IMG/VR virus record: IMGVR_UViG_3300031576_000021
Span: 1-64,000 of that record
Direction: 5' to 3' (one strand)
Source of the DNA: a virus
DNA length: 64,000 bases
Part shown: piece after piece, positions 1,798-55,813 of the stretch
Layout of the letters: each line of letters begins with the position of its first letter
Position numbering within the stretch: the first letter of the stretch is position 1
Made by a program: the position numbers and the translations under genes
The notes under the pieces: model-generated
Seen by the model: only the letters and a program-made list of their open reading frames with translations
Databases searched by the model: none
What the model was told of the DNA's origin: nothing

Positions 1798-2421
1798 ATG
1801 TTCACCGTGGCCGTCATCGTGCCGAGTCAACAGATGGCGCGGCTGGATCGCCGGCTGGCACAGCTGCCCGACCAGCTGAAGCGGGTGGGTCGCCGGACGT
1901 TGGAGCAGCAAGGAGCGCTGGCGCTGCGGCACTTGATCCGCACCCATCTCTCGGCGCCGCACCCGACGCGCACAGCGGTTTCGCGGCGGACAGGGGCCCT
2001 GATCCGCTCCTATCGCTACCGGGTGCGCCAGCGGGACCAGGCGCTAGAGCTGGCCTTCATTCAGCTCCGCAGCGTGCGGGGGCGGCTGGGGGCACGGCCG
2101 GCGGTCTACGGGCCGGTGCTGGAGCGTGGCGCGATCATCCGGGCCAAACATGGCGGCAACCTGACCATCCCACTGCATCCGCGGGCCGAGGCACGCCGGG
2201 CACGGACGGTAGTGGGGCTGTTCCCGATTACCTCACGACGGGGCAACCACCTGCTCGTCATGCGGCGCGGGGCGGGCATCGAGCCGTGGTACTTGCTGCG
2301 GAAGTCGGTCCGCATTCCCGGCCGGCACATGGTGCGGTCGACCGTGCGGTGGGCCCGGCCGCGTGCCGTGACGGCGCTCCGCGGTGCCTACCGCCGGACG
2401 CTCATGGTGCGCCGTGGCTAG
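1798..2421 (+). CDS. Neck/tail completion protein (HK97 gp10 / virion morphogenesis-like)
   Basis: Basic protein with RRTGALIRS, YGPVLERGAII, LTIP and LRKSVRIPGR motifs; synteny. Confidence 0.65.
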   Translation: MFTVAVIVPSQQMARLDRRLAQLPDQLKRVGRRTLEQQGALALRHLIRTHLSAPHPTRTAVSRRTGALIRSYRYRVRQRDQALELAFIQLRSVRGRLGARPAVYGPVLERGAIIRAKHGGNLTIPLHPRAEARRARTVVGLFPITSRRGNHLLVMRRGAGIEPWYLLRKSVRIPGRHMVRSTVRWARPRAVTALRGAYRRTLMVRRG

Positions 2422-2902
2422 CCCGAGTCGCGCCACGCCGGTCTCGCTGTCGCTTCGGGCGCAGGTCGAGACGACGCTTCGGAAGATCACACGCGCTAAC
2501 GGCTACAACCACGATTTCACGCCGGCCTCGTTCCATGACCAGGCGTTCGATGCGTTCCAGTCGAAGGTGCTGCCGGCGTGTGGGGTGATCATCGGGCCCG
2601 AGCTGGCAGACCCCGAGGCGACGGTCACGGCGAAGTCCGGACGTATCCTTACGGTGCAGATCGATTGGTGGCTGAACAAGAAGGGGTTTCCATCGCTCCT
2701 CGAAGCGAACGAACGGATGGCAGCCGACCTCGTCGTCGCGATGCTCGCCGACGTGAAGCGTGGCGGGCTCGCCTGGGACACGCGGCTGCAAGACATCGTG
2801 CGGGTCGAGGCCGAGACCGGGGTGATCGAGCGCGGCGGCAGTGCCTTCTTCGATGTGCATTTCCGCTATGCAGTCGGCGCGCCGACGGTGATTGCGGCAT
2901 GA
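2414..2902 (+). CDS. Tail terminator-like protein
   Basis: LRKITRANGYNHD N-terminus and RGGLAWDT motif; position between neck and tube genes; GTG overlaps the upstream gene end. Confidence 0.65.
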   Translation: MASPSRATPVSLSLRAQVETTLRKITRANGYNHDFTPASFHDQAFDAFQSKVLPACGVIIGPELADPEATVTAKSGRILTVQIDWWLNKKGFPSLLEANERMAADLVVAMLADVKRGGLAWDTRLQDIVRVEAETGVIERGGSAFFDVHFRYAVGAPTVIAA

Positions 2903-3954
2903 CGGCGGCGCAGGCACTCGCGCCCACCGCTGACGCTATCCGGGTCGCGTGGGCAGCCTCCACCGCCGAGACCGGCAACGGCATGGGCTACACGCGCATG
3001 AGTCGGGCGCTGCAAGCCGCGTTTGTCGAGGCCGGCGGCGTGATCGATCAGGACGCCGAGCTGGCGTTGCACGTCACCTACGCGCCGCATTTCCAGCCGA
3101 TCCCGGGCCGACGCAACGCTCTGATGACAATGTGGGAATCGGAGCCCGTGCCGGCGCCATTTGTCGCGGCCCTCCAGCGGGCCGATGCGATTATCGCGCC
3201 CTCGCGCTGGGTCGCCGACGTGATGCGCCGCGCGGCGCAAGTCCCCTGCGTCTGGATCGTGCCGCTCGGGATCGATCCGAAGCTCTGGCTGCGCGTGGTC
3301 CGCCACCCGCCGCAGAAGCGGCCATTCCGCTGGCTCTGGGTCGGCGCGCACAATCATCGGAAAGGGTGGCTGCACGTCACCGAAGCGTGGAAGCTCGGTT
3401 TCCTCGGGCGGACCGACTGCGAGCTGTACTTGAAGACGACGGAGATCGATCCCGAGTACGTCGCCGCGTTGGCGGCAGGGTACTCAATCCCCGCGGGCTC
3501 GGTGCGCCGCCAGAACAACGTGGTGCTGGACACGCGGAAGGTATCCGACGCCGAGCTGTTCCAGCTGTACGCGCAGGCCGATGGCTTCGTCTTGCCACAC
3601 ATGGGCGAGGGATACGGCTGCACCCTCAGCGAGGCGATGGCCACGGCGCTGCCGTGTGTGTCGATCTTGACAACCGGCGTGACGCAGTTTGCCGATGCGT
3701 CGGTGTGTCGTCCCGTGACGTGGCACTACGAAGACGTGCAGGTCTGTCCCGTTGCTGGCGACGCGATCGTCACCGTGCGGACGTGTTCGGCGGACATTCC
3801 CGACCTAGTTGCACAGATGGCCTGGGTCATGGCACATCCCATCAAGGCGCGTGAGCTGGGGCTCCGCGCGTCCAAGCGCGTCCACGGCCAGCACACGTGG
3901 GGCGAGGCAGGGCGGCGGTTACTGCGGGCGGTCGGCGAGATCACGAGCGGATGA
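2899..3954 (+). CDS. Glycosyltransferase family 4 (GT-B)
   Basis: TMWESEP, ADAIIAPS, VPLGID, VGAHNHRKG, ADGFVLPHMGEGYGCTLSEAMATALP (E-x7-E); ATGA-coupled to the upstream gene. Confidence 0.9.
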   Translation: MTAAQALAPTADAIRVAWAASTAETGNGMGYTRMSRALQAAFVEAGGVIDQDAELALHVTYAPHFQPIPGRRNALMTMWESEPVPAPFVAALQRADAIIAPSRWVADVMRRAAQVPCVWIVPLGIDPKLWLRVVRHPPQKRPFRWLWVGAHNHRKGWLHVTEAWKLGFLGRTDCELYLKTTEIDPEYVAALAAGYSIPAGSVRRQNNVVLDTRKVSDAELFQLYAQADGFVLPHMGEGYGCTLSEAMATALPCVSILTTGVTQFADASVCRPVTWHYEDVQVCPVAGDAIVTVRTCSADIPDLVAQMAWVMAHPIKARELGLRASKRVHGQHTWGEAGRRLLRAVGEITSG

Positions 3955-3979
3955 GGGGTAGGGCAAGGAGGAGAAGATC

Positions 3980-4969
3980 ATGCTGACCCGGAACAAGATT
4001 CTGCTGGCCAAGACTGAGGTGACGGAAGGGGTCGATTCCGTCCCGACCGCGGCGACGGATTCGATCTTGGTGATCGAACCCGAAGTCTCGCCCAACTCCG
4101 ACGTGCTGGCGCGGCAGGTGGTCGACGCGAGCTTCTCGCCGTTCGGCAACGTGGTGACCGTCCGCGAGCAAAGCTTCACGTTCGGGACGGAGATGCGTCC
4201 GATCGGCGCCATCCCCACTGCGGCGGCGCCGCTCCGGGAGAATCCCCTCTTCGTGGCGTGCGGCATGTCGCCGAGCTACGCTGCCAGCTCGTGCGTTTAC
4301 CGGCCTCGCACTACCTGGCCGGCGAACAACTCCGTGACGCTCTACGCGTTCATCGACGGCTTGCTGCACGTGGGCATCGGTTGCCGCGGCAATATGTCCC
4401 TCGCCGCCGAGGTGGGACAGTACGGCCGCTACAGTTGGACGATACGCGGCACCTTCGCGCCGCTCACGTTCCCCACGCCCGGGGCCGGCGATGGCATCCG
4501 GGACGCCGCGTTCCCGACGCCGACCTATCAGGCATTCGCCATCGATCCCTACCCGGTGCTCGGCACCGCACTCAGCGTGCTGGGCTACACCGGCTGTGCG
4601 GCGGCCATCAGCATCGACCTCCAGAACGACATTCAACGGCGGGTCTGCATGCAGAACGCCAACGGCGTGGCCAGCTTCATCATCGCCGGGCGCAACCCCA
4701 CGGGCGACGTCGACCCGGAAGCCGTCATCCGCGCCACGTTCGACATGTGGGGCCGGTGGGCGAACGGCACCAAGGGTATGGTCAGTTTCTCGATCGGGAC
4801 GACGATTGCCGCAGCCGGCAACGGCCGCATCCTCGTCGAGGCCCCCGCGTCGCAGATCGGCCAGATGGTCTACCGCGATCGCAACGGCATCCTCGTCTTC
4901 GGCATCCCGTTCGGCCTGAACCGACTCGCGTCTGCGGGCGATGATGAGTTGGCCATTACGTATTCATAA
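3980..4969 (+). CDS. Major tail tube protein
   Basis: AGGAG RBS; LLAKTEVTEGVDSVPT N-terminus, SVTLY, GCRGN, RNPTGDVDPE and GDDELAITY end; precedes chaperone and tape measure. Confidence 0.8.
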   Translation: MLTRNKILLAKTEVTEGVDSVPTAATDSILVIEPEVSPNSDVLARQVVDASFSPFGNVVTVREQSFTFGTEMRPIGAIPTAAAPLRENPLFVACGMSPSYAASSCVYRPRTTWPANNSVTLYAFIDGLLHVGIGCRGNMSLAAEVGQYGRYSWTIRGTFAPLTFPTPGAGDGIRDAAFPTPTYQAFAIDPYPVLGTALSVLGYTGCAAAISIDLQNDIQRRVCMQNANGVASFIIAGRNPTGDVDPEAVIRATFDMWGRWANGTKGMVSFSIGTTIAAAGNGRILVEAPASQIGQMVYRDRNGILVFGIPFGLNRLASAGDDELAITYS

Positions 4970-5133
4970 ACGATTCCCAATGGTTACGCTCACCTGCAAA
5001 GTCCGTAGTTCATCATTCCTGGTGAAGCCTTGCGAGGTGAAGCGGGCACGATTCACCGGAACGTAACTGTAGGCGCCGAGCACGCTGAATAGACCGGGCG
5101 GTGGACGCAAGGGCCACCGACCCGCAGGAGGGC

Positions 5134-5628
5134 ATGAGGATGCGAGGAACGAATATCGAGCGCGTGCGCGAGTACGTGCTCAAGGAGGAGCGCGACTCCT
5201 CTACCGACGAGCGGACCACGTTCCTGTATCGGTATCTCGACGCCGAGACGATGTGGGACATGCAGGACGAGCTGATGCAGTACAGCGTCCCGCGCGGTGC
5301 TGGGGCCGATGACGACAGCGACGTGAAGACGAGCGTGTTCCATGGCCGCAACGAGCGGAAGGCGCTCCTCAAGGGGCTCGTTGGCTACCGGAACGTCTAC
5401 GACGAAGACGGCGTGCGGTTGCCAGACGTCGAGAACGCCGACCAGACGCAGAAGAAGCTAGTGCTCTCGATGATGACGGCGACGCAGCGGACGGAGTTGT
5501 CCAGCGTGATTCTGCGCAGCGCGAAGCTGACGGAGAAGCAGAAGGGGGAATCACCTTCGCAGCCTGGGCTCTTGTCAATCGCCGAGCCAGCTGCGGACGC
5601 CCCGCGACCTGCGATTGCCGCAGCCTGA
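5134..5628 (+). CDS. Tail assembly chaperone (G-like)
   Basis: CAGGAGG RBS before ATG 5134; between tube and tape measure; in-phase slippery heptamer G GGG GAA at 5544-5550. Confidence 0.8.
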   Translation: MRMRGTNIERVREYVLKEERDSSTDERTTFLYRYLDAETMWDMQDELMQYSVPRGAGADDDSDVKTSVFHGRNERKALLKGLVGYRNVYDEDGVRLPDVENADQTQKKLVLSMMTATQRTELSSVILRSAKLTEKQKGESPSQPGLLSIAEPAADAPRPAIAAA

Positions 5629-5891
5629 CGGGCGGGTCGTTCTACACCTATGACGAGCCGCAGCCAGACGGGTCGATCAAGCGCCAGCGGCTCGATGGCT
5701 GCCCGCTCGATCGCATCACCCCGTTCGCAAACAAGGTGTTCCTGCTGCATTCGCACTTCGAGAATGGCGTCTTGCTGGACGAAGGAGGGCTAGGGGCACA
5801 GCGGTACTGGTACCTGGAGGCGATGACGGTGGCGGGGGGTGCGTTGCATGAGGCACAGGAGCGACGGCCCAAGCCGAAGCCGAAGTCGTAG
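5134..5891 (+). CDS. Tail assembly chaperone GT fusion via programmed -1 frameshift
   Basis: The -1 frame is open from 5547 to TAG 5889-5891 (GITFAAWAL...GCPLDRITP...GVLLDEGGLGAQRYWYLEAM...), directly abutting the tape measure ATG. Confidence 0.8.
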
Positions 5892-53072: not shown

Positions 53073-53196
53073 ATGACGTCGCGCCATTGGTATCTGGTAT
53101 TCAGCACGCCGCGCGGCATCCTGCGGTACGCTGGGTCGATCACGCAGGCGAACCGAGCCGTGCTCGAGCGTAAGCGCAGCCTCACGCTCCACGTCT
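53073..53196 (+). pseudogene. 5' part of a 48-aa gene interrupted by the IS1-like element (3' part at 55799-55821)
   Basis: Removing the element and one TSD restores MTSRHWYLVF...LTLHVYGDVRYG*, whose end overlaps the next ATG at 55814. Confidence 0.65.
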
Positions 53197-53409
53197 GGTG
53201 CTGTCCTAATTCGGCGTGAAGTGTCCTAGTATGCGCGCCCATCGGCATGGACCCGATGGGCGACATCTCGGCGGAGCTGCTGACGGCCGACCAGATTGAG
53301 CCGGCGGGACTATCGGCAGACTTTCACGGGGTCTTTAGACGCCTCTCCTTATCACGCCATTCCGGGAAGCCAGGGGTGCTGTCCTACTTAGGACACTCCC
53401 GCATCGAAA

Positions 53410-54375
53410 TTAGGACAGTCCCCCCTTGATGACCCGCAAGTGGTTCGGGCGCGGTCCTCGCGGCCCGCGGAAGCTCCCCCGCCGCTCGCCCTTCGCCTGC
53501 GCGGCGGTGGACCCTGCCGGGATCGGCGCGGGCGCAGTCGGCTCCGGTGCCTCGAACGCGGCGTGCAGTAGCTCGGCGATCGACCACACGTGATCCGTCA
53601 GGCCCGCCTCCATGGCGGGAGTACACCGCAGCGTCTCGTGGACGCGGCAGAAGTTGAAGTGGGCGACGAACAGCCCCACGGCTGCTTCCAGGTTCCGCAG
53701 CCGCTTCGAATGCGAGATGGTCAACCGGGCGAAGCGCTTGAGCGACACGCGCACCGACAGATTCAGCCGCTCGCTGTAGGACGTGCTGATTTCCCCCCAG
53801 GCCGGATCGCCCAACACGGCAGTCTTGGTCACGCGACTGATCTTGCCGGGCGAGTAGCGCAACGCGGCCTGCTGCGCCTGGGGCACCGTGTAGTCCTTGT
53901 CCACGGTGCCGAAATCCACGTCGGCGCCGAAGTGCCGCGAGATGGCCTCGGGGTAGCCGTTCCATGCGTCGGTGCTGATCTGCGGACGGCCCAGCACCCG
54001 CAACCGGAGGTCCTGCGCGAACGCGTCGGCGTTGTCGCCCGTGCGCTTCCCGACCCGGTACGAGAGAATGAGCTTGGACACCGCGTCCATGGCGAGAAAG
54101 ACGTACTGGTCGCCGTACTCCCTCGGGTCGTCCTGCCGAAGCCGGCGCTGCTTCTTCTGCACGAACGTCCATAGCTCGTCGGCCTGGATGAGCGTCGCGC
54201 GCACGTCCCGCACGCGGGCATCGTGCAGCCGGGCGCACGCTTCGCCCACCGTGACGCCCAGCCGCATGATCGTGTCCCGGTGGACATCGAGCAGCCGCTC
54301 GGCCGCCCGAATGCTCACGCCGTCCACGAGGGCTGCGGCGACTTGGGCTTTCTTCTCAAATGGCAGCGTGTGCAT
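53410..54375 (-). CDS. IS1-family DDE transposase
   Basis: HTH (GVSIRAAERLL); ADELWTFV, ISTDAW, STSYSERLN, NFCRVH...TPAM. Confidence 0.9.
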   Translation of the reverse strand: MHTLPFEKKAQVAAALVDGVSIRAAERLLDVHRDTIMRLGVTVGEACARLHDARVRDVRATLIQADELWTFVQKKQRRLRQDDPREYGDQYVFLAMDAVSKLILSYRVGKRTGDNADAFAQDLRLRVLGRPQISTDAWNGYPEAISRHFGADVDFGTVDKDYTVPQAQQAALRYSPGKISRVTKTAVLGDPAWGEISTSYSERLNLSVRVSLKRFARLTISHSKRLRNLEAAVGLFVAHFNFCRVHETLRCTPAMEAGLTDHVWSIAELLHAAFEAPEPTAPAPIPAGSTAAQAKGERRGSFRGPRGPRPNHLRVIKGGLS

Positions 54376-54380
54376 GGGGA

Positions 54381-54446
54381 CATTTGTAGCTACAAACGCG
54401 CCACAAGTCAAGGGGTGGACTTCACGCCCATTTGTCGCTACAAACG
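54381..54446. promoter_or_regulatory. Divergent promoters with twin palindromic operators
   Basis: TTTGTAGCTACAAA at 54383-54396 and TTTGTCGCTACAAA at 54431-54444; TTGACT-17-TACAAA (-) and TGGACT-17-TACAAA (+). Confidence 0.75.
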
Positions 54447-54450
54447 GTTC

Positions 54451-54624
54451 ATGCCACGTCGCAAGGTCAAGGCCGAACGTAAGGAAGCGGTTGTCCGGTT
54501 GCGGGTGACGGAGGAACAGCGCCGCATGTTGTTCGCGGCAGCCCAGCACGCCGGGTTGGAGTTGAGCGCCTGGTTGCGTTCACTTGGGTTGCGGGAGGCC
54601 CGCCGAATCGAATCGTCCGCGTAG
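54451..54624 (+). CDS. Ribbon-helix-helix protein (MobC/DUF1778-like)
   Basis: RKEAVVRLRVTEEQRRMLFAAAQHAGLELSAWLR. Confidence 0.85.
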   Translation: MPRRKVKAERKEAVVRLRVTEEQRRMLFAAAQHAGLELSAWLRSLGLREARRIESSA

Positions 54625-54778
54625 GGGGGGGGCTTGCGGTCAAGGCTCGTGCGGATTAGGTGGCAGGGTCGCCGCCTGAAACCCTAAGCGCTTGGCTGAC
54701 TTGGGTGCGTCTTGGGTATGGCCTTGATCGCGGGAACGCGATAGGTAGGCCAAAGAGGGAAGAGAAGAGCCCCTTGGC

Positions 54779-54870
54779 GGCGAGGTGTGTGAGCCAGGTT
54801 GAAACAGTCGGACTCAAAATCCGGTGAGCGCTTACCCGCTCCGTCCGTTCGAATCGGACCCTCGCCGCCA
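54779..54870 (+). tRNA. Class II tRNA, anticodon CAA (nominally Leu) with a Ser-type body
   Basis: GGCGAGG/CCTCGCC acceptor, G73, encoded CCA; TCGGA-CT CAA AA-TCCGG; V arm GAGCG/CGCTC; GTCCG-TTCGAAT-CGGAC. Confidence 0.92.
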
Positions 54871-54957
54871 AGGCGCTTTTCTCTCGGTACGTGCCCCTTC
54901 TGCCCCTGCGCCAGCATGTGCTGCGTGCAAGCTGGCAGCGCGTGCTAGCTATCGCAT

Positions 54958-54986
54958 CTATTGGCCTGTTGCCGTCCTTGTGTCAA
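54958..54986 (-). promoter_or_regulatory. TTGACACAA-class promoter, antisense to the tRNA
   Basis: Reverse complement reads TTGACACAAGGACGGCAACAGGCCAATAG. Confidence 0.5.
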
Positions 54987-55283
54987 GCTGCGCTTGACTA
55001 GCCCGCGACCAACGGTCGCGCATGCTTGTTCGTGTTCCAACGCATTTCCCTAGGCTTAGCGGCGACCGTTCAACTTAGGACACTGGTTCATTCGACTTAG
55101 GACAGATAGCCCCTAATTCGGACAGCGTCAAGCCAGGCACCCGTTTGGGGCATTGGGGGGGGCTTGATCAATTGCGGTGCTTGATTAATTGTTAAGGGCC
55201 CCATATGTAGGGGGGGCAGGCCGCAGGGGCACTAGGGGGTCCAGGGAGGGGCCGTGGGGAAGTTGTAGGATTCGTAGCTCTGA

Positions 55284-55440
55284 GAGGCCGGATATTCCCC
55301 GACGATGCGTACTTTCGCGGCATGGCGCGATGCGGCCTCAAGCGATCGCGCCACACTCGCGTCGCGCCTCGTGCCATCCAGCTCGATGAAGAACATGTAC
55401 GTTTCCGGCTGCCCGTGAACCGGCCTGGAGATGATCACGG
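55284..55440 (-). pseudogene. pheA: Fragment of the prephenate dehydratase ACT domain
   Basis: VIISRPVHGQPETYMFFIELDG...VARSLE...VRIVGEYP matches the ESRP...Y.FF.D..G...LGSYP C-terminus of PheA. Confidence 0.7.
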
Positions 55441-55813
55441 AGGAGCTGCGTCTCGACGTCAAGCTCGCCCTGGTGGGCCATGATCGCGGCAGGATCAACG
55501 GGCCGCGCGGGGAATCGGTGCGTCGGATGAACACGACATCGACAGCTCGACGACGACAACCTCAACGGAGGACATATCTGGACGATTGCCGAGCTGGCGG
55601 ACGCGGCCCTGACTGCGTCCGACGCCGACGCCGCTCCCCACGCCAGATCAGCAGACGTTCCCCGGCATGAGCGCGGCACAGGCGAAGAACGATCCGAAGG
55701 GCGTCACGTTGCGGCGGCTCCGCCTCACGATAATAAGGGGCGGGCGGAAATGAAGACACGACGCGCGAGTGTCCTACTTAGGACAGCACCCCACGTCTAT
55801 GGGGACGTGCGGT

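What the first reader, a model, noticed from the sequence alone, without database searches (positions are those of the whole stretch)
53197..55790. IS1-like cargo transposon carrying an RHH repressor and the anomalous tRNA
Seen: exact boundaries (13-bp TIR, 8-bp TSD CCACGTCT) and an interrupted small gene that is restored on in-silico excision, so the insertion is recent. The transposase occupies under 40% of the element. RHH and tRNA are co-oriented and divergent from the transposase. Inference: RHH plus tRNA mirrors antitoxin/regulator plus toxin cargo, with an RNA as the effector, which would be an undescribed transposon-borne tRNA addiction or defence module.
Basis: partly seen in the sequence, partly recalled or inferred. 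Interest (0 to 1): 0.85.

Follow-up and report, generated by a model that had tools for sequence, protein, structure and literature searches.

The report
Nested IS1 transposon with own tRNA
A jumping gene of the IS1 family that landed in a phage carries its own repressor and an odd tRNA with a serine-type body and a leucine anticodon, and the repressor is written almost entirely in the one leucine codon that this tRNA reads, so the tRNA probably serves the element's own control.

Summary
A 13-bp inverted repeat and the 8-bp duplication CCACGTCT bound 53197-55790, and transposase, ribbon-helix-helix (RHH) gene and tRNA lie as described.

The stretch is two nested elements. A complete 1755-bp IS1-family element (53375-55129, own duplication AAGCCAGG) sits in an 831-bp transposase-less shell of the same family.

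The tRNA is not chance cargo. Of 243 related loci, 49 have a tRNA-like gene beside the transposase. In 19 of 21 loci with a cluster of rare GTA codons in the transposase, that tRNA has a UAC-type loop. After correction for shared descent this is only a trend (5 independent contrasts, p about 0.13).

Here the tRNA has a serine-type body, G73 and a leucine CAA anticodon arm. Six of seven leucine codons in the RHH gene are TTG, against 16% in the phage and 0 of 5 in the closest relative whose DNA I could read, which has no tRNA.

Best reading: the tRNA is tied by codon choice to the element's own genes. A toxin or defence role is unsupported but not excluded.

This scan has reported IS1-borne odd tRNAs on other DNA before. 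In print I found only a loose link between allo-tRNAs and mobile elements (Mukai 2017).

The parts
53073..53219 (+). Small phage ORF hit by the insertion; its last 7 codons are replaced
   Evidence: excision restores a 48-aa ORF whose stop overlaps the start codon of the next gene.
53189..53196 (.). Target-site duplication of the composite, copy 1 (CCACGTCT)
   Evidence: read directly.
53197..53374 (.). Left arm of the 831-bp transposase-less shell; begins with a cargo-side ('b'-type) end
   Evidence: terminal 12-mer plus a direct GTGTCCTA repeat, as at the cargo-side ends of L091, L099, L102 and L211.
53367..53374 (.). Target-site duplication of the inner element, copy 1 (AAGCCAGG)
   Evidence: read directly; it abuts the inner left terminus.
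53375..55129 (-). Inner complete IS1-family element, 1755 bp: transposase, operators, RHH gene, tRNA
   Evidence: transposase-side ('a'-type) end at 53375, b-type end at 55129, own 8-bp duplication.
53375..53424 (.). a-type end: terminal palindrome and a second TTAGGACAG motif
   Evidence: pair I1, 34 nt, 88%; same layout in L211, L099, L102.
53410..54375 (-). IS1-family DDE transposase, 321 aa, single ORF
   Evidence: PF03400, 25.5 bits against 24.1; NCBIfam transpos_IS1, 55.8 bits, below its cut-off of 100; homologues of 318-323 aa up to 74% identical; invariant acidic residues kept.
54381..54446 (.). Two copies of an 18-bp near-palindromic operator-like site between the divergent start codons
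   Evidence: D8, 94% identical, 48 bp apart; I6. Binding by the RHH protein is inferred.
54451..54624 (+). RHH regulator, 57 aa; 6 of its 7 Leu codons are TTG
54761..54884 (+). Leader/trailer stem that lengthens the acceptor stem to about 24 bp, followed by a T-rich run
   Evidence: I2, 25 nt, 92%; -67.5 kcal/mol, z -4.54; 17 extra pairs here, at most 8 in the 16 other tRNAs checked.
54779..54870 (+). 92-nt class II tRNA: serine-type body, G73, encoded CCA, anticodon CAA
55068..55129 (.). b-type end of the inner element with three GTCCTAA-type repeats; its tip differs from the family consensus at 2 of the first 3 bases
   Evidence: (D1).
55130..55137 (.). Target-site duplication of the inner element, copy 2 (AAGCCAGG)
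55138..55790 (.). Right arm of the shell; ends with an a-type end; holds a fragment of a prephenate dehydratase gene on the minus strand
   Evidence: residues 34-85 of ORF 55534..55232 match the C-terminal part of prephenate dehydratase, E 7e-7.
55791..55798 (.). Target-site duplication of the composite, copy 2 (CCACGTCT)

Best explanation
The stretch is a composite of two IS1-family elements. A complete 1755-bp element lies inside an 831-bp transposase-less shell of the same family, and the whole moved into the phage on the shell's intact ends.

The inner element carries a self-control module. An RHH repressor probably binds two operators between the divergent transposase and RHH start codons. 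A tRNA lies downstream of the RHH gene, on the same strand. It has a serine-type body and a leucine CAA anticodon arm.

The tRNA is tied to the element's own genes through codon choice. It reads UUG, and UUG encodes six of the seven leucines of the repressor, all at conserved positions. The tRNA level should therefore set how much repressor is made, or how faithfully it is made, and through the repressor how much transposase.

Shown: the anatomy, the family membership, the shape of the tRNA, the codon bias, and the recurrence of tRNA and codon matches in relatives.

Inferred: operator binding, co-transcription, processing, charging with serine, and the direction of the effect. The tRNA could help translation. 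Or it could spoil the repressor by putting Ser where Leu belongs.
For: Nesting:
- Each element has one transposase-side and one cargo-side end of the family's two end types, and each has its own perfect 8-bp duplication.
- I read 8-bp duplications at 7 of the 8 relatives whose two ends were printed. L098 is unclear.

Family habit:
- 40 of 243 loci have recognisable end pairs, with a median length of 3346 bp (1966-5792). Of these, 11 hold a tRNA-like gene inside the ends.
- 49 of 243 loci have a tRNA-like gene within 2 kb upstream or 0.6 kb downstream of the transposase. Density is 0.102 per kb there against 0.021 per kb in the farther flanks.

Anticodon and codon match in relatives:
- 19 of 21 transposases with 3 or more GTA codons in one 14-codon stretch have a tRNA-like gene with a UAC-type loop. 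So do 7 of 211 without that cluster.
- UAC is invariant in 12 such genes, while 13 of 16 stem pairs show compensatory changes.
- The same cluster goes with two unrelated tRNA types: a 74-nt class I type, and a 90-nt serine type in L099 and L102.
- The five loci with UAU tRNAs have ATA at 25-44% of Ile codons (four of them) or 4 ATA in the 14-codon stretch (L185). The family mean is 10%.
- A shuffle test reached the observed value in 3 of 5000 shuffles.
- The divergent regulators of four GTA-group loci use GTA for 11 of 21 Val codons, against 46 of 234 in control HTH domains.

This window:
- RHH gene TTG 6 of 7, phage background 219 of 1372, P about 1e-4.
- 22 more distant RHH relatives use TTG for 28 of 126 Leu codons.
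- The closest RHH relative with DNA, L281 (70% identical, same divergent layout, no tRNA found at E < 0.01), uses TTG 0 of 5 times at the same positions.
- The TTG leucines sit at invariant or nearly invariant columns of the RHH family.
- The layout matches L099 and L102: transposase, divergent regulator, then a serine-type tRNA pointing at the cargo-side end about 220-260 bp away.
- tRNA profile scores are Ser 32.4, Leu 6.6 and Tyr 10.1 bits. An 18-nt stretch over the anticodon arm is identical to a canonical tRNA-Leu(CAA).
Against: - In this element the transposase itself shows no TTG enrichment (5 of 30) and no rare-codon cluster. The link rests on one 57-codon gene, and I noticed it before testing it.
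- UUG is not rare here (16% of Leu codons), so the rare-codon logic seen in relatives does not carry over simply.
- No relative with a CAA tRNA was found, so the pairing of CAA tRNA and TTG codons is a single case.
- After correction for shared descent the GTA/UAC link rests on 5 independent contrasts. About 4.1 go the same way and the sign test gives a median p of 0.125. The ATA/UAU link has 1 of 7.
- Most related loci (194 of 243) show no tRNA-like gene, including the nearest ones L170, L041, L018 and L089.
- Many class I UAC genes have weak or irregular anticodon stems.
- The long leader/trailer stem could block normal tRNA processing.
- There are no data on expression, charging or function. 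The only run holding this DNA is its likely source.
- The covariance models were trained on the first hits, so detection favours similar tRNAs.
Confidence: 0.5

Rival explanations
1. The tRNA is a toxic effector: a serine-charged reader of UUG that mistranslates host proteins. The RHH protein holds it in check. Together they form an addiction or anti-phage module carried by the transposon.
For: - Serine-type body with G73 and a Leu anticodon. SerRS does not read the anticodon (Mukai 2017, section 13 read; review PMC7609411, passages read).
- UUG is a common codon (16% of Leu), so mistranslation would be broad.
- Mukai 2017 (section 16) reports that two of six allo-tRNA(UAU) variants, after conversion to a CUA anticodon, killed E. 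coli.
- The RHH protein resembles TacA/DUF1778 antitoxins weakly: PF08681 at 18.9 bits, below its cut-off of 21, and source names.
- A TTG-rich repressor could act as a latch once the tRNA rises.
Against: - No toxin protein gene, and none of the 5 ORFs tested matches PADLOC.
- In relatives the anticodon follows codons in the element's own transposase and regulator, which a host-directed toxin does not need.
- Relatives mostly use rare codons (GUA, AUA), which would keep damage to the host small.
- The same RHH family stands beside the transposase without any tRNA in L281, L089 and L018, so it is a transposon regulator first.
Confidence: 0.15
2. The tRNA is passive or decaying cargo. It is a captured or mutated tRNA-Ser gene with no present function, and the TTG bias of the small RHH gene is chance.
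For: - The element also carries junk: the shell holds a fragment of a prephenate dehydratase gene.
- No other CAA example was found.
- The Rfam tRNA-clan score is below the gathering threshold, 38.7 against 47 for tRNA-Sec.
- The processing stem is unusual.
Against: - All four stems and the variable arm are fully paired, the T loop is canonical and CCA is encoded.
- The anticodon arm equals that of a working tRNA-Leu(CAA) over 18 nt.
- The tRNA takes the same position and direction as the serine-type tRNAs of L099 and L102.
- tRNA-like genes are five-fold enriched next to these transposases.
- TTG 6 of 7 has P of about 1e-4 to 7e-4.
Confidence: 0.15
3. The tRNA works as an RNA processing or stability signal for the RHH transcript, through cleavage by RNase P, RNase Z or RNase III at the long stem. 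It does not work as a decoder.
For: - It lies 155 nt downstream of the RHH gene on the same strand, inside a stem of about 24 bp followed by a T-rich run.
- In 37 relatives a tRNA-like gene sits within 300 nt upstream of the transposase on the same strand, that is, in its leader.
Against: - A processing signal needs no particular anticodon. Yet UAC is invariant across 12 diverged copies and matches the codon cluster.
- The long stem is found only here.
Confidence: 0.1
4. The tRNA serves the phage or the host as an extra decoder of UUG.
For: Phages often carry tRNAs (general knowledge). This one is the only tRNA in the 64-kb window.
Against: - It lies inside transposon ends, not among phage genes.
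- Its serine-type identity would put the wrong amino acid at UUG.
- Relatives occur in bacterial chromosomes, plasmids and phages alike.
Confidence: 0.05

Closest known systems
IS1-family insertion sequences, single-ORF and passenger-carrying members
   Same: The transposase matches Pfam PF03400 and is annotated 'IS1 family transposase' in plasmid and JGI records. Terminal inverted repeats and 8-bp target duplications are present.
   Different: No two-ORF frameshift arrangement. The two ends are unlike, each with several repeats. The family routinely carries 1.5-3 kb of cargo that includes a divergent regulator and often a tRNA-like gene. That long passenger-carrying IS1 members are catalogued is my recollection of ISfinder. 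My search found two papers holding the terms and I read neither.
allo-tRNAs and irregular tRNA polycistrons (Mukai et al., Nucleic Acids Res 2017, PMC5389517; review PMC7609411)
   Same: Long variable arm, G73 and an anticodon that does not fit the serine-type body. [quoted passage not shown] Relatives here carry true 8/4 forms with UAU (L020, L059, my reading).
   Different: This tRNA has the normal 7/5 acceptor/T arrangement and a normal D arm, so it is not an allo-tRNA in the strict sense. The tie to one transposase family, and the match between anticodon and the element's own codons, are not in the parts of those papers that I read. No paper in the library holds both 'allo-tRNA' and 'transposase'.
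bldA tRNA-Leu(UAA) and TTA-codon genes in Streptomyces (recalled, not checked here)
   Same: One dedicated tRNA gates the translation of a few regulatory genes that contain its cognate codon.
   Different: bldA is a correctly charged chromosomal tRNA that reads a truly rare codon. Here the tRNA is transposon-borne, probably mischarged, and its codon is not rare.
Ser-tRNA(CAG) of the CTG-clade yeasts (recalled; PMC6041473 seen only in the listing)
   Same: A serine-type tRNA that reads a leucine codon.
   Different: That case is a genome-wide change of the code in a eukaryote. This is a single gene on a bacterial mobile element.
Self-limiting controls of transposons, such as the IS1 InsA repressor and IS10 antisense RNA (recalled)
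   Same: The element encodes a trans-acting brake on its own transposase.
   Different: Here the proposed control acts through a private pairing of tRNA and codon, together with an RHH repressor.

Membership tests
IS1 family insertion sequence | Transposase matches the IS1 DDE domain | tested here: met
   PF03400 at 25.5 bits against a cut-off of 24.1. NCBIfam transpos_IS1 is the best hit, but 55.8 bits is below its equivalog cut-off of 100. Homologues are named IS1 family transposase.
IS1 family insertion sequence | Terminal inverted repeats and an 8-9 bp target duplication | tested here: met
   13-bp outer repeat and a 34-nt inner/outer pair at 88%. Two perfect 8-bp duplications here, and 8-bp duplications in 7 of the 8 relatives whose ends I read.
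IS1 family insertion sequence | Transposase made by a programmed -1 frameshift between two ORFs (classical IS1; recalled) | tested here: not met
   A single 321-aa ORF, colinear with 318-323-aa homologues. It is therefore a single-ORF variant.
allo-tRNA (Mukai 2017) | 12-bp acceptor branch in an 8/4 or 9/3 arrangement | tested here: not met
   7-bp acceptor stem and 5-bp T stem. Rfam's tRNA-Sec alignment needs mismatches and stays below threshold.
allo-tRNA (Mukai 2017) | tRNA-Sec-like D arm (long stem, tetraloop) | tested here: not met
   3-bp D stem with a 13-nt loop, as in ordinary tRNA-Ser.
allo-tRNA (Mukai 2017) | Long variable arm, G73 or U73, and a non-serine anticodon | tested here: met
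   5-bp variable stem, G73, anticodon CAA. Ser profile 32.4 bits against Leu 6.6.
Type II toxin-antitoxin pair with an RHH antitoxin (TacA-TacT type) | An adjacent toxin protein gene in the same operon | tested here: not met
   No ORF with a family match lies next to the RHH gene inside the element. The next feature is the tRNA.
Type II toxin-antitoxin pair with an RHH antitoxin (TacA-TacT type) | Toxicity that the partner relieves | not testable with these tools
   Needs expression experiments.
Non-autonomous derivative of the same IS family (the 831-bp shell) | Family-type ends and a target duplication, without a transposase | tested here: met
   One end of each family type, an 8-bp duplication, no similarity to the transposase at E below 0.8, and it holds a fragment of a prephenate dehydratase gene.

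The most novel reading that the evidence does not exclude
The element runs a private decoding switch. Its tRNA is charged with serine but reads UUG, and the element has written its own repressor in UUG. When the tRNA rises, the six conserved core leucines of the RHH repressor are replaced by serine and the repressor fails. Transposase, and more tRNA, are then released. Mistranslation of one chosen protein would be the control signal of a mobile element. Across the family the pairing of anticodon and codon has been swapped (UAC/GUA, UAU/AUA, CAA/UUG) while the logic stays.
Probability: 0.2. Interest if true: 0.9.

Novelty: new variant of a known kind. Interest (0 to 1): 0.68.

Why it matters
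Allo-tRNAs and other irregular tRNAs with mismatched anticodons have been known since 2017 without a function. The authors could only suggest a link to mobile elements or toxin-antitoxin systems.

This locus and its relatives place many such tRNAs inside one IS1-type transposon family. They also show that the anticodon tends to match codons concentrated in the element's own transposase or regulator.

If that holds, it would be a new way for a mobile element to control itself: a tRNA-codon pair of its own. It would also give a concrete test for what these tRNAs do.

This element is compact (1.75 kb) with only three genes. That makes it a convenient model: one repressor, one tRNA, one transposase, and six codons to recode.

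Tried and rejected
Empty-site relatives of the phage:
- No match in INPHARED phages with a 6-kb query.
- The one distant IMG/VR relative (L168) has no homologue of the genes that flank the insertion.
- The only sequencing run that holds the stretch is its likely source, a cave metagenome. Its contigs show neither an empty site nor a shell without the inner element. No RNA holder was listed.

Closer relatives of the element:
- The protein database holds transposases up to 74% identical and RHH proteins up to 75% identical.
- Matching contig sizes (6736, 188059, 2293, 1612) suggest that transposase and RHH gene share contigs. This is indirect evidence.

Other CAA tRNAs:
- None among 243 loci with ARAGORN at default settings or with the two covariance models.
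- ARAGORN at lowered thresholds was too noisy to use: 326 calls at 85%.

Other checks that led nowhere:
- Idea that the TTG codons of the transposase mark Ser positions: rejected. Two of five TTG positions align to columns where Ser is the commonest residue, but one is an invariant Leu.
- Shared descent of the transposon-borne serine-type tRNAs: not seen. Each is closest to ordinary tRNA-Ser genes.
- Leader/trailer stem as a family feature: rejected. It occurs only here.
- Promoter scan: 0 sigma-70-like sites. Terminator-like sites: 2 found against 1.7 expected. Uninformative.
- Rfam on the five nearest loci: no match.
- RHH relative in another viral contig (L283): it precedes a DNA methyltransferase-like ORF (my reading), has no tRNA, and uses TTG for 2 of 9 Leu codons (read by eye).

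Literature:
- Searches found no paper on a transposon-borne tRNA matched to transposase codons.
Figure 4A and Supplementary Figures S5 and S6 of Mukai 2017 may show transposase neighbours that I could not see.
Full report
WHAT IS THERE

The window is part of a complete 88,217-bp phage record with direct terminal repeats, and the element occurs in it once. The left end at 53197 and the reverse complement of the right end at 55790 agree for 13 bases, and CCACGTCT flanks both ends.

Removing the element and one copy of the duplication gives a 48-aa ORF whose stop overlaps the start codon of the next gene. Only its last seven codons differ from the interrupted form.

The minus-strand ORF 54375..53410 (321 aa) is an IS1-family transposase. 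It scores 25.5 bits on PF03400 against a cut-off of 24.1. NCBIfam transpos_IS1 is its best hit but lies below the equivalog cut-off. Homologues of 318-323 aa reach 74% identity, and 4130 proteins scored E <= 0.001 among the 8000 candidates scored.

The plus-strand gene 54451-54624 encodes a 57-aa ribbon-helix-helix protein (NikA-like, 32.4 bits against 27). Between the two divergent start codons lie two copies of an 18-bp near-palindrome, 48 bp apart. Each ends 6-7 bases before a start codon. I take them as operators of the RHH protein. That is inference.

TWO NESTED ELEMENTS

A second copy of the left terminus stands at 53375, and it pairs better with the right end (34 nt, 88%). An end-like sequence in the opposite direction stops at 55129. 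AAGCCAGG lies directly outside both, at 53367-53374 and 55130-55137.

The ends of relatives explain this. In this family the transposase-side end is a terminal palindrome followed by a second TTAGGACAG motif. The cargo-side end has the same terminal 12-mer followed by direct GTGTCCTAA repeats about 23 bp apart.

The inner element (53375-55129, 1755 bp) has a transposase-side end next to the transposase stop, and a cargo-side end with three repeats. The outer shell (831 bp after removal of the inner element) has one end of each type in the opposite orientation, and no transposase (no similarity at E below 0.8). It holds a fragment of a prephenate dehydratase gene, so it has lived in a bacterial chromosome.

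The register of the inner right end is fixed by the conserved core of the repeat. A perfect 8-of-8 match of its flanks is therefore unlikely by chance (about 1 in 65,000, before allowing for base composition).

The tip of the inner cargo-side end differs from the family consensus at two of its first three bases, while both shell ends are intact. This fits a last jump of the whole 2594-bp composite, powered by the inner transposase. I put the nested reading at about 85%.

A CARGO-CARRYING FAMILY

I collected 243 related loci:
- 4 plasmid loci;
- 80 from species-representative genomes (487 of 600 pattern matches confirmed, best 80 kept);
- 80 from metagenomes (592 of 600 confirmed, best 80 kept);
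- 79 from IMG/VR viral contigs (170 of 186 confirmed).

All are 36-55% identical to the window's transposase.

With a strict search for the terminal 12-mer, 40 of the 243 have an end on each side of the transposase. These elements have a median length of 3346 bp (1966-5792). I read 8-bp duplications at seven of the eight relatives whose two ends were printed (L170, L091, L211, L099, L102, L028, L031); L098 is unclear. A transposase share under 40% is therefore normal for this family.

RHH relatives of the window's protein occur in 22 loci, mostly divergent and directly upstream of the transposase. Other loci have HTH proteins at that place.

THE tRNA

ARAGORN calls a 92-nt tRNA-Leu(CAA). All stems are fully paired, the T loop is canonical and CCA is encoded. 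Rfam's best clan member is tRNA-Sec at 38.7 bits, below its threshold of 47. The fold is nevertheless the normal 7/5 one, not 8/4 or 9/3.

I compared it with profiles built from 12 Ser, 14 Leu and 3 Tyr tRNAs taken from three unrelated genomes. It scores 32.4 bits as Ser, 6.6 as Leu and 10.1 as Tyr. It has G73, and its D arm and variable arm align with ordinary tRNA-Ser (64-69% identity).

Its anticodon arm, in contrast, is identical over 18 nt to that of a canonical tRNA-Leu(CAA). So it is a serine-type body with a leucine anticodon arm.

SerRS ignores the anticodon (Mukai 2017, section 13, read). The expected product is therefore Ser-tRNA that reads UUG. This is inference.

A 25-nt inverted repeat lengthens the acceptor stem to about 24 bp and is followed by a T-rich run. 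This feature is peculiar to this copy: 17 extra pairs here against at most 8 in the 16 other tRNAs checked.

NOT CHANCE CARGO

ARAGORN and two covariance models were run over the 243 loci. R1 was built from class II tRNAs (17 of 20 pairs with compensatory changes). R2 was built from a 74-nt class (13 of 16 pairs). Together they find tRNA-like genes near the transposase in 49 of 243 loci. There are 57 hits in 559 kb near the transposase against 18 in 852 kb farther out, or 0.102 against 0.021 per kb. In 37 loci the gene lies within 300 nt upstream of the transposase on the same strand. Eleven of the 40 bounded elements hold one inside their ends.

The anticodons are unusual and follow the element's codons:
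- Twenty-one transposases have three or more GTA codons in one 14-codon stretch. Nineteen of them have a tRNA-like gene with a UAC-type loop, against 7 of 211 others. Of the two exceptions, L136 has no upstream DNA in the locus and L211 has no hit.
- UAC is invariant in the alignment of 12 such genes although their stems have changed.
- L099 and L102 have the same GTA cluster but a different tRNA. It is a 90-nt serine-type gene with UAC on the other strand near the cargo-side end.
- Five loci have UAU tRNAs. In four of them (L020, L052, L059, L145) ATA makes up 25-44% of Ile codons against a family mean of 10%. The fifth, L185, has 4 ATA in the 14-codon stretch. Their ATA codons fall in the same part of the protein.
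- A shuffle of anticodons over loci reached the observed match in 3 of 5000 trials.

A caution applies. These loci are related to one another. On a tree built with the cluster columns masked there are only 5 independent contrasts for GTA. About 4.1 go the same way and 0.1 the other way, and the sign test gives a median p of 0.125. For ATA only 1 of 7 contrasts goes the same way. The pattern is strong in counts but rests on few events.

THE LINK IN THIS WINDOW

The transposase here has no cluster and an ordinary TTG share (5 of 30). The RHH gene uses TTG for 6 of its 7 leucines. The comparison values are:
- 219 of 1372 Leu codons in the phage's long ORFs, P about 1e-4;
- 28 of 126 in 22 more distant RHH relatives, P about 7e-4.

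The six TTG leucines are at invariant or nearly invariant positions of a tightly conserved RHH family.

The closest relative whose DNA I could read is L281. Its RHH protein is 70% identical, its transposase 54% identical, and the divergent layout is the same. No tRNA was found there at E < 0.01. It writes the same leucines with CTG, CTC and CTT, so TTG is 0 of 5.

Regulators in the GTA group behave alike. The divergent HTH genes of L099, L102, L095 and L010 use GTA for 11 of 21 Val codons. HTH domains of loci without the cluster use it for 46 of 234. Other HTH genes farther from the transposase in GTA-group loci are not enriched (2 of 27).

The overall layout of the inner element equals that of L099 and L102: transposase, divergent regulator, then a serine-type tRNA pointing at the cargo-side end 220-260 bp away.

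HOW IT MOST LIKELY WORKS

The RHH protein represses both divergent promoters (inferred). The tRNA is made with or just after the RHH transcript (inferred). It decodes the codon in which the repressor is written. The tRNA therefore feeds back on the repressor and, through it, on the transposase.

I cannot tell the direction of the effect. If the tRNA merely supplies decoding, more tRNA gives more repressor, which is a brake. If it inserts serine, more tRNA gives a faulty repressor, which is a release and perhaps a switch.

In relatives, GTA clusters go with two tRNA types. One is probably valine-accepting (A73 with UAC; my reading, not tested). The other is serine-type. That favours decoding as such over a particular amino acid.

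My confidence that the tRNA is functionally tied to the element's own genes by codon choice is about 0.5.

RIVALS

But there is no toxin protein gene and no PADLOC match, and the family evidence points at the element's own genes. Confidence 0.15.
- Passive or decaying cargo: 0.15.
- Processing signal only: 0.1.
- Service to the phage or host: 0.05.

WHAT IS KNOWN

Mukai et al. 2017 (PMC5389517; abstract and sections 13, 14 and 16 read) described allo-tRNAs with 8/4 or 9/3 folds, serine identity and 35 different anticodons. [quoted passage not shown] The 2020 review (PMC7609411, passages read) repeats this.

No paper in the library holds both 'allo-tRNA' and 'transposase'. Three other searches gave nothing on transposon-borne tRNAs matched to transposase codons. 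I could not see the supplements of Mukai 2017.

Earlier reports of this scan had already noted IS1-borne odd tRNAs whose anticodons match rare codons in the transposase or regulator, on other DNA. I reached the same pattern before reading them. They are AI notes, not independent support.

VERDICT

The tRNA and the RHH gene belong together and to the element. The best-supported role is control of the element itself, not addiction or defence.

This copy adds three things to the picture:
- a normal-fold serine-type tRNA with a leucine anticodon arm;
- a repressor, not the transposase, as the codon-marked gene;
- a very compact three-gene element suited to experiments.

Noticed in passing
window 55232-55534 (minus strand): An ORF in the shell whose residues 34-85 match the C-terminal part of prephenate dehydratase (E 7e-7). 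It is a captured fragment of a host gene inside the transposase-less shell.
   Followed up: partly
window 54761-54884: The tRNA's leader and trailer pair for 17 extra base pairs. They bury G73 and CCA in a stem of about 24 bp, followed by a T-rich run. This is found only in this copy. It could be an RNase III-type processing stalk or a terminator.
   Followed up: partly
L017:3344-3429; L232-L235 at about 3281-3366 (L233: 2646-2731): Leucine-type tRNAs (A73; Leu profile 29-48 bits) with an ochre-reading UUA anticodon. In L232-L235 they sit 135 nt upstream of the transposase, and in L017 569 nt upstream. They are candidate transposon-borne nonsense suppressors.
   Followed up: no
L091:3782-5183: Three tRNA-like genes lie around one element. 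A class I gene (ARAGORN anticodon UCC) is upstream of the transposase and a 73-nt GCG gene is downstream inside the ends. A 96-nt serine-type GCG gene lies 84 bp outside the end.
   Followed up: no
L091, L099, L102, L211, L098, L121 ends: The two ends of these IS1-like elements are systematically different. The transposase-side end is a palindrome with one further repeat. The cargo-side end has two or three direct repeats about 23 bp apart.
   Followed up: partly
L283:2834-3030: An RHH relative (58% identical) in another viral contig precedes an ORF that I read as a C5 DNA methyltransferase, not a transposase.
   Followed up: no
L004 and L006 (plasmids NZ_CP136863.1, NZ_CP041717.1): Plasmid relatives of the transposase lie next to annotated defence or toxin-antitoxin genes: a Shedu nuclease and a RES-Xre pair. 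Whether these lie inside the elements was not checked.
   Followed up: no
L008, L015, L090, L018, L041 (transposase codons): Some transposases have the pair ATA AGA, both rare codons, in the stretch where others have GTA or ATA clusters. No tRNA was found there with my models.
   Followed up: no
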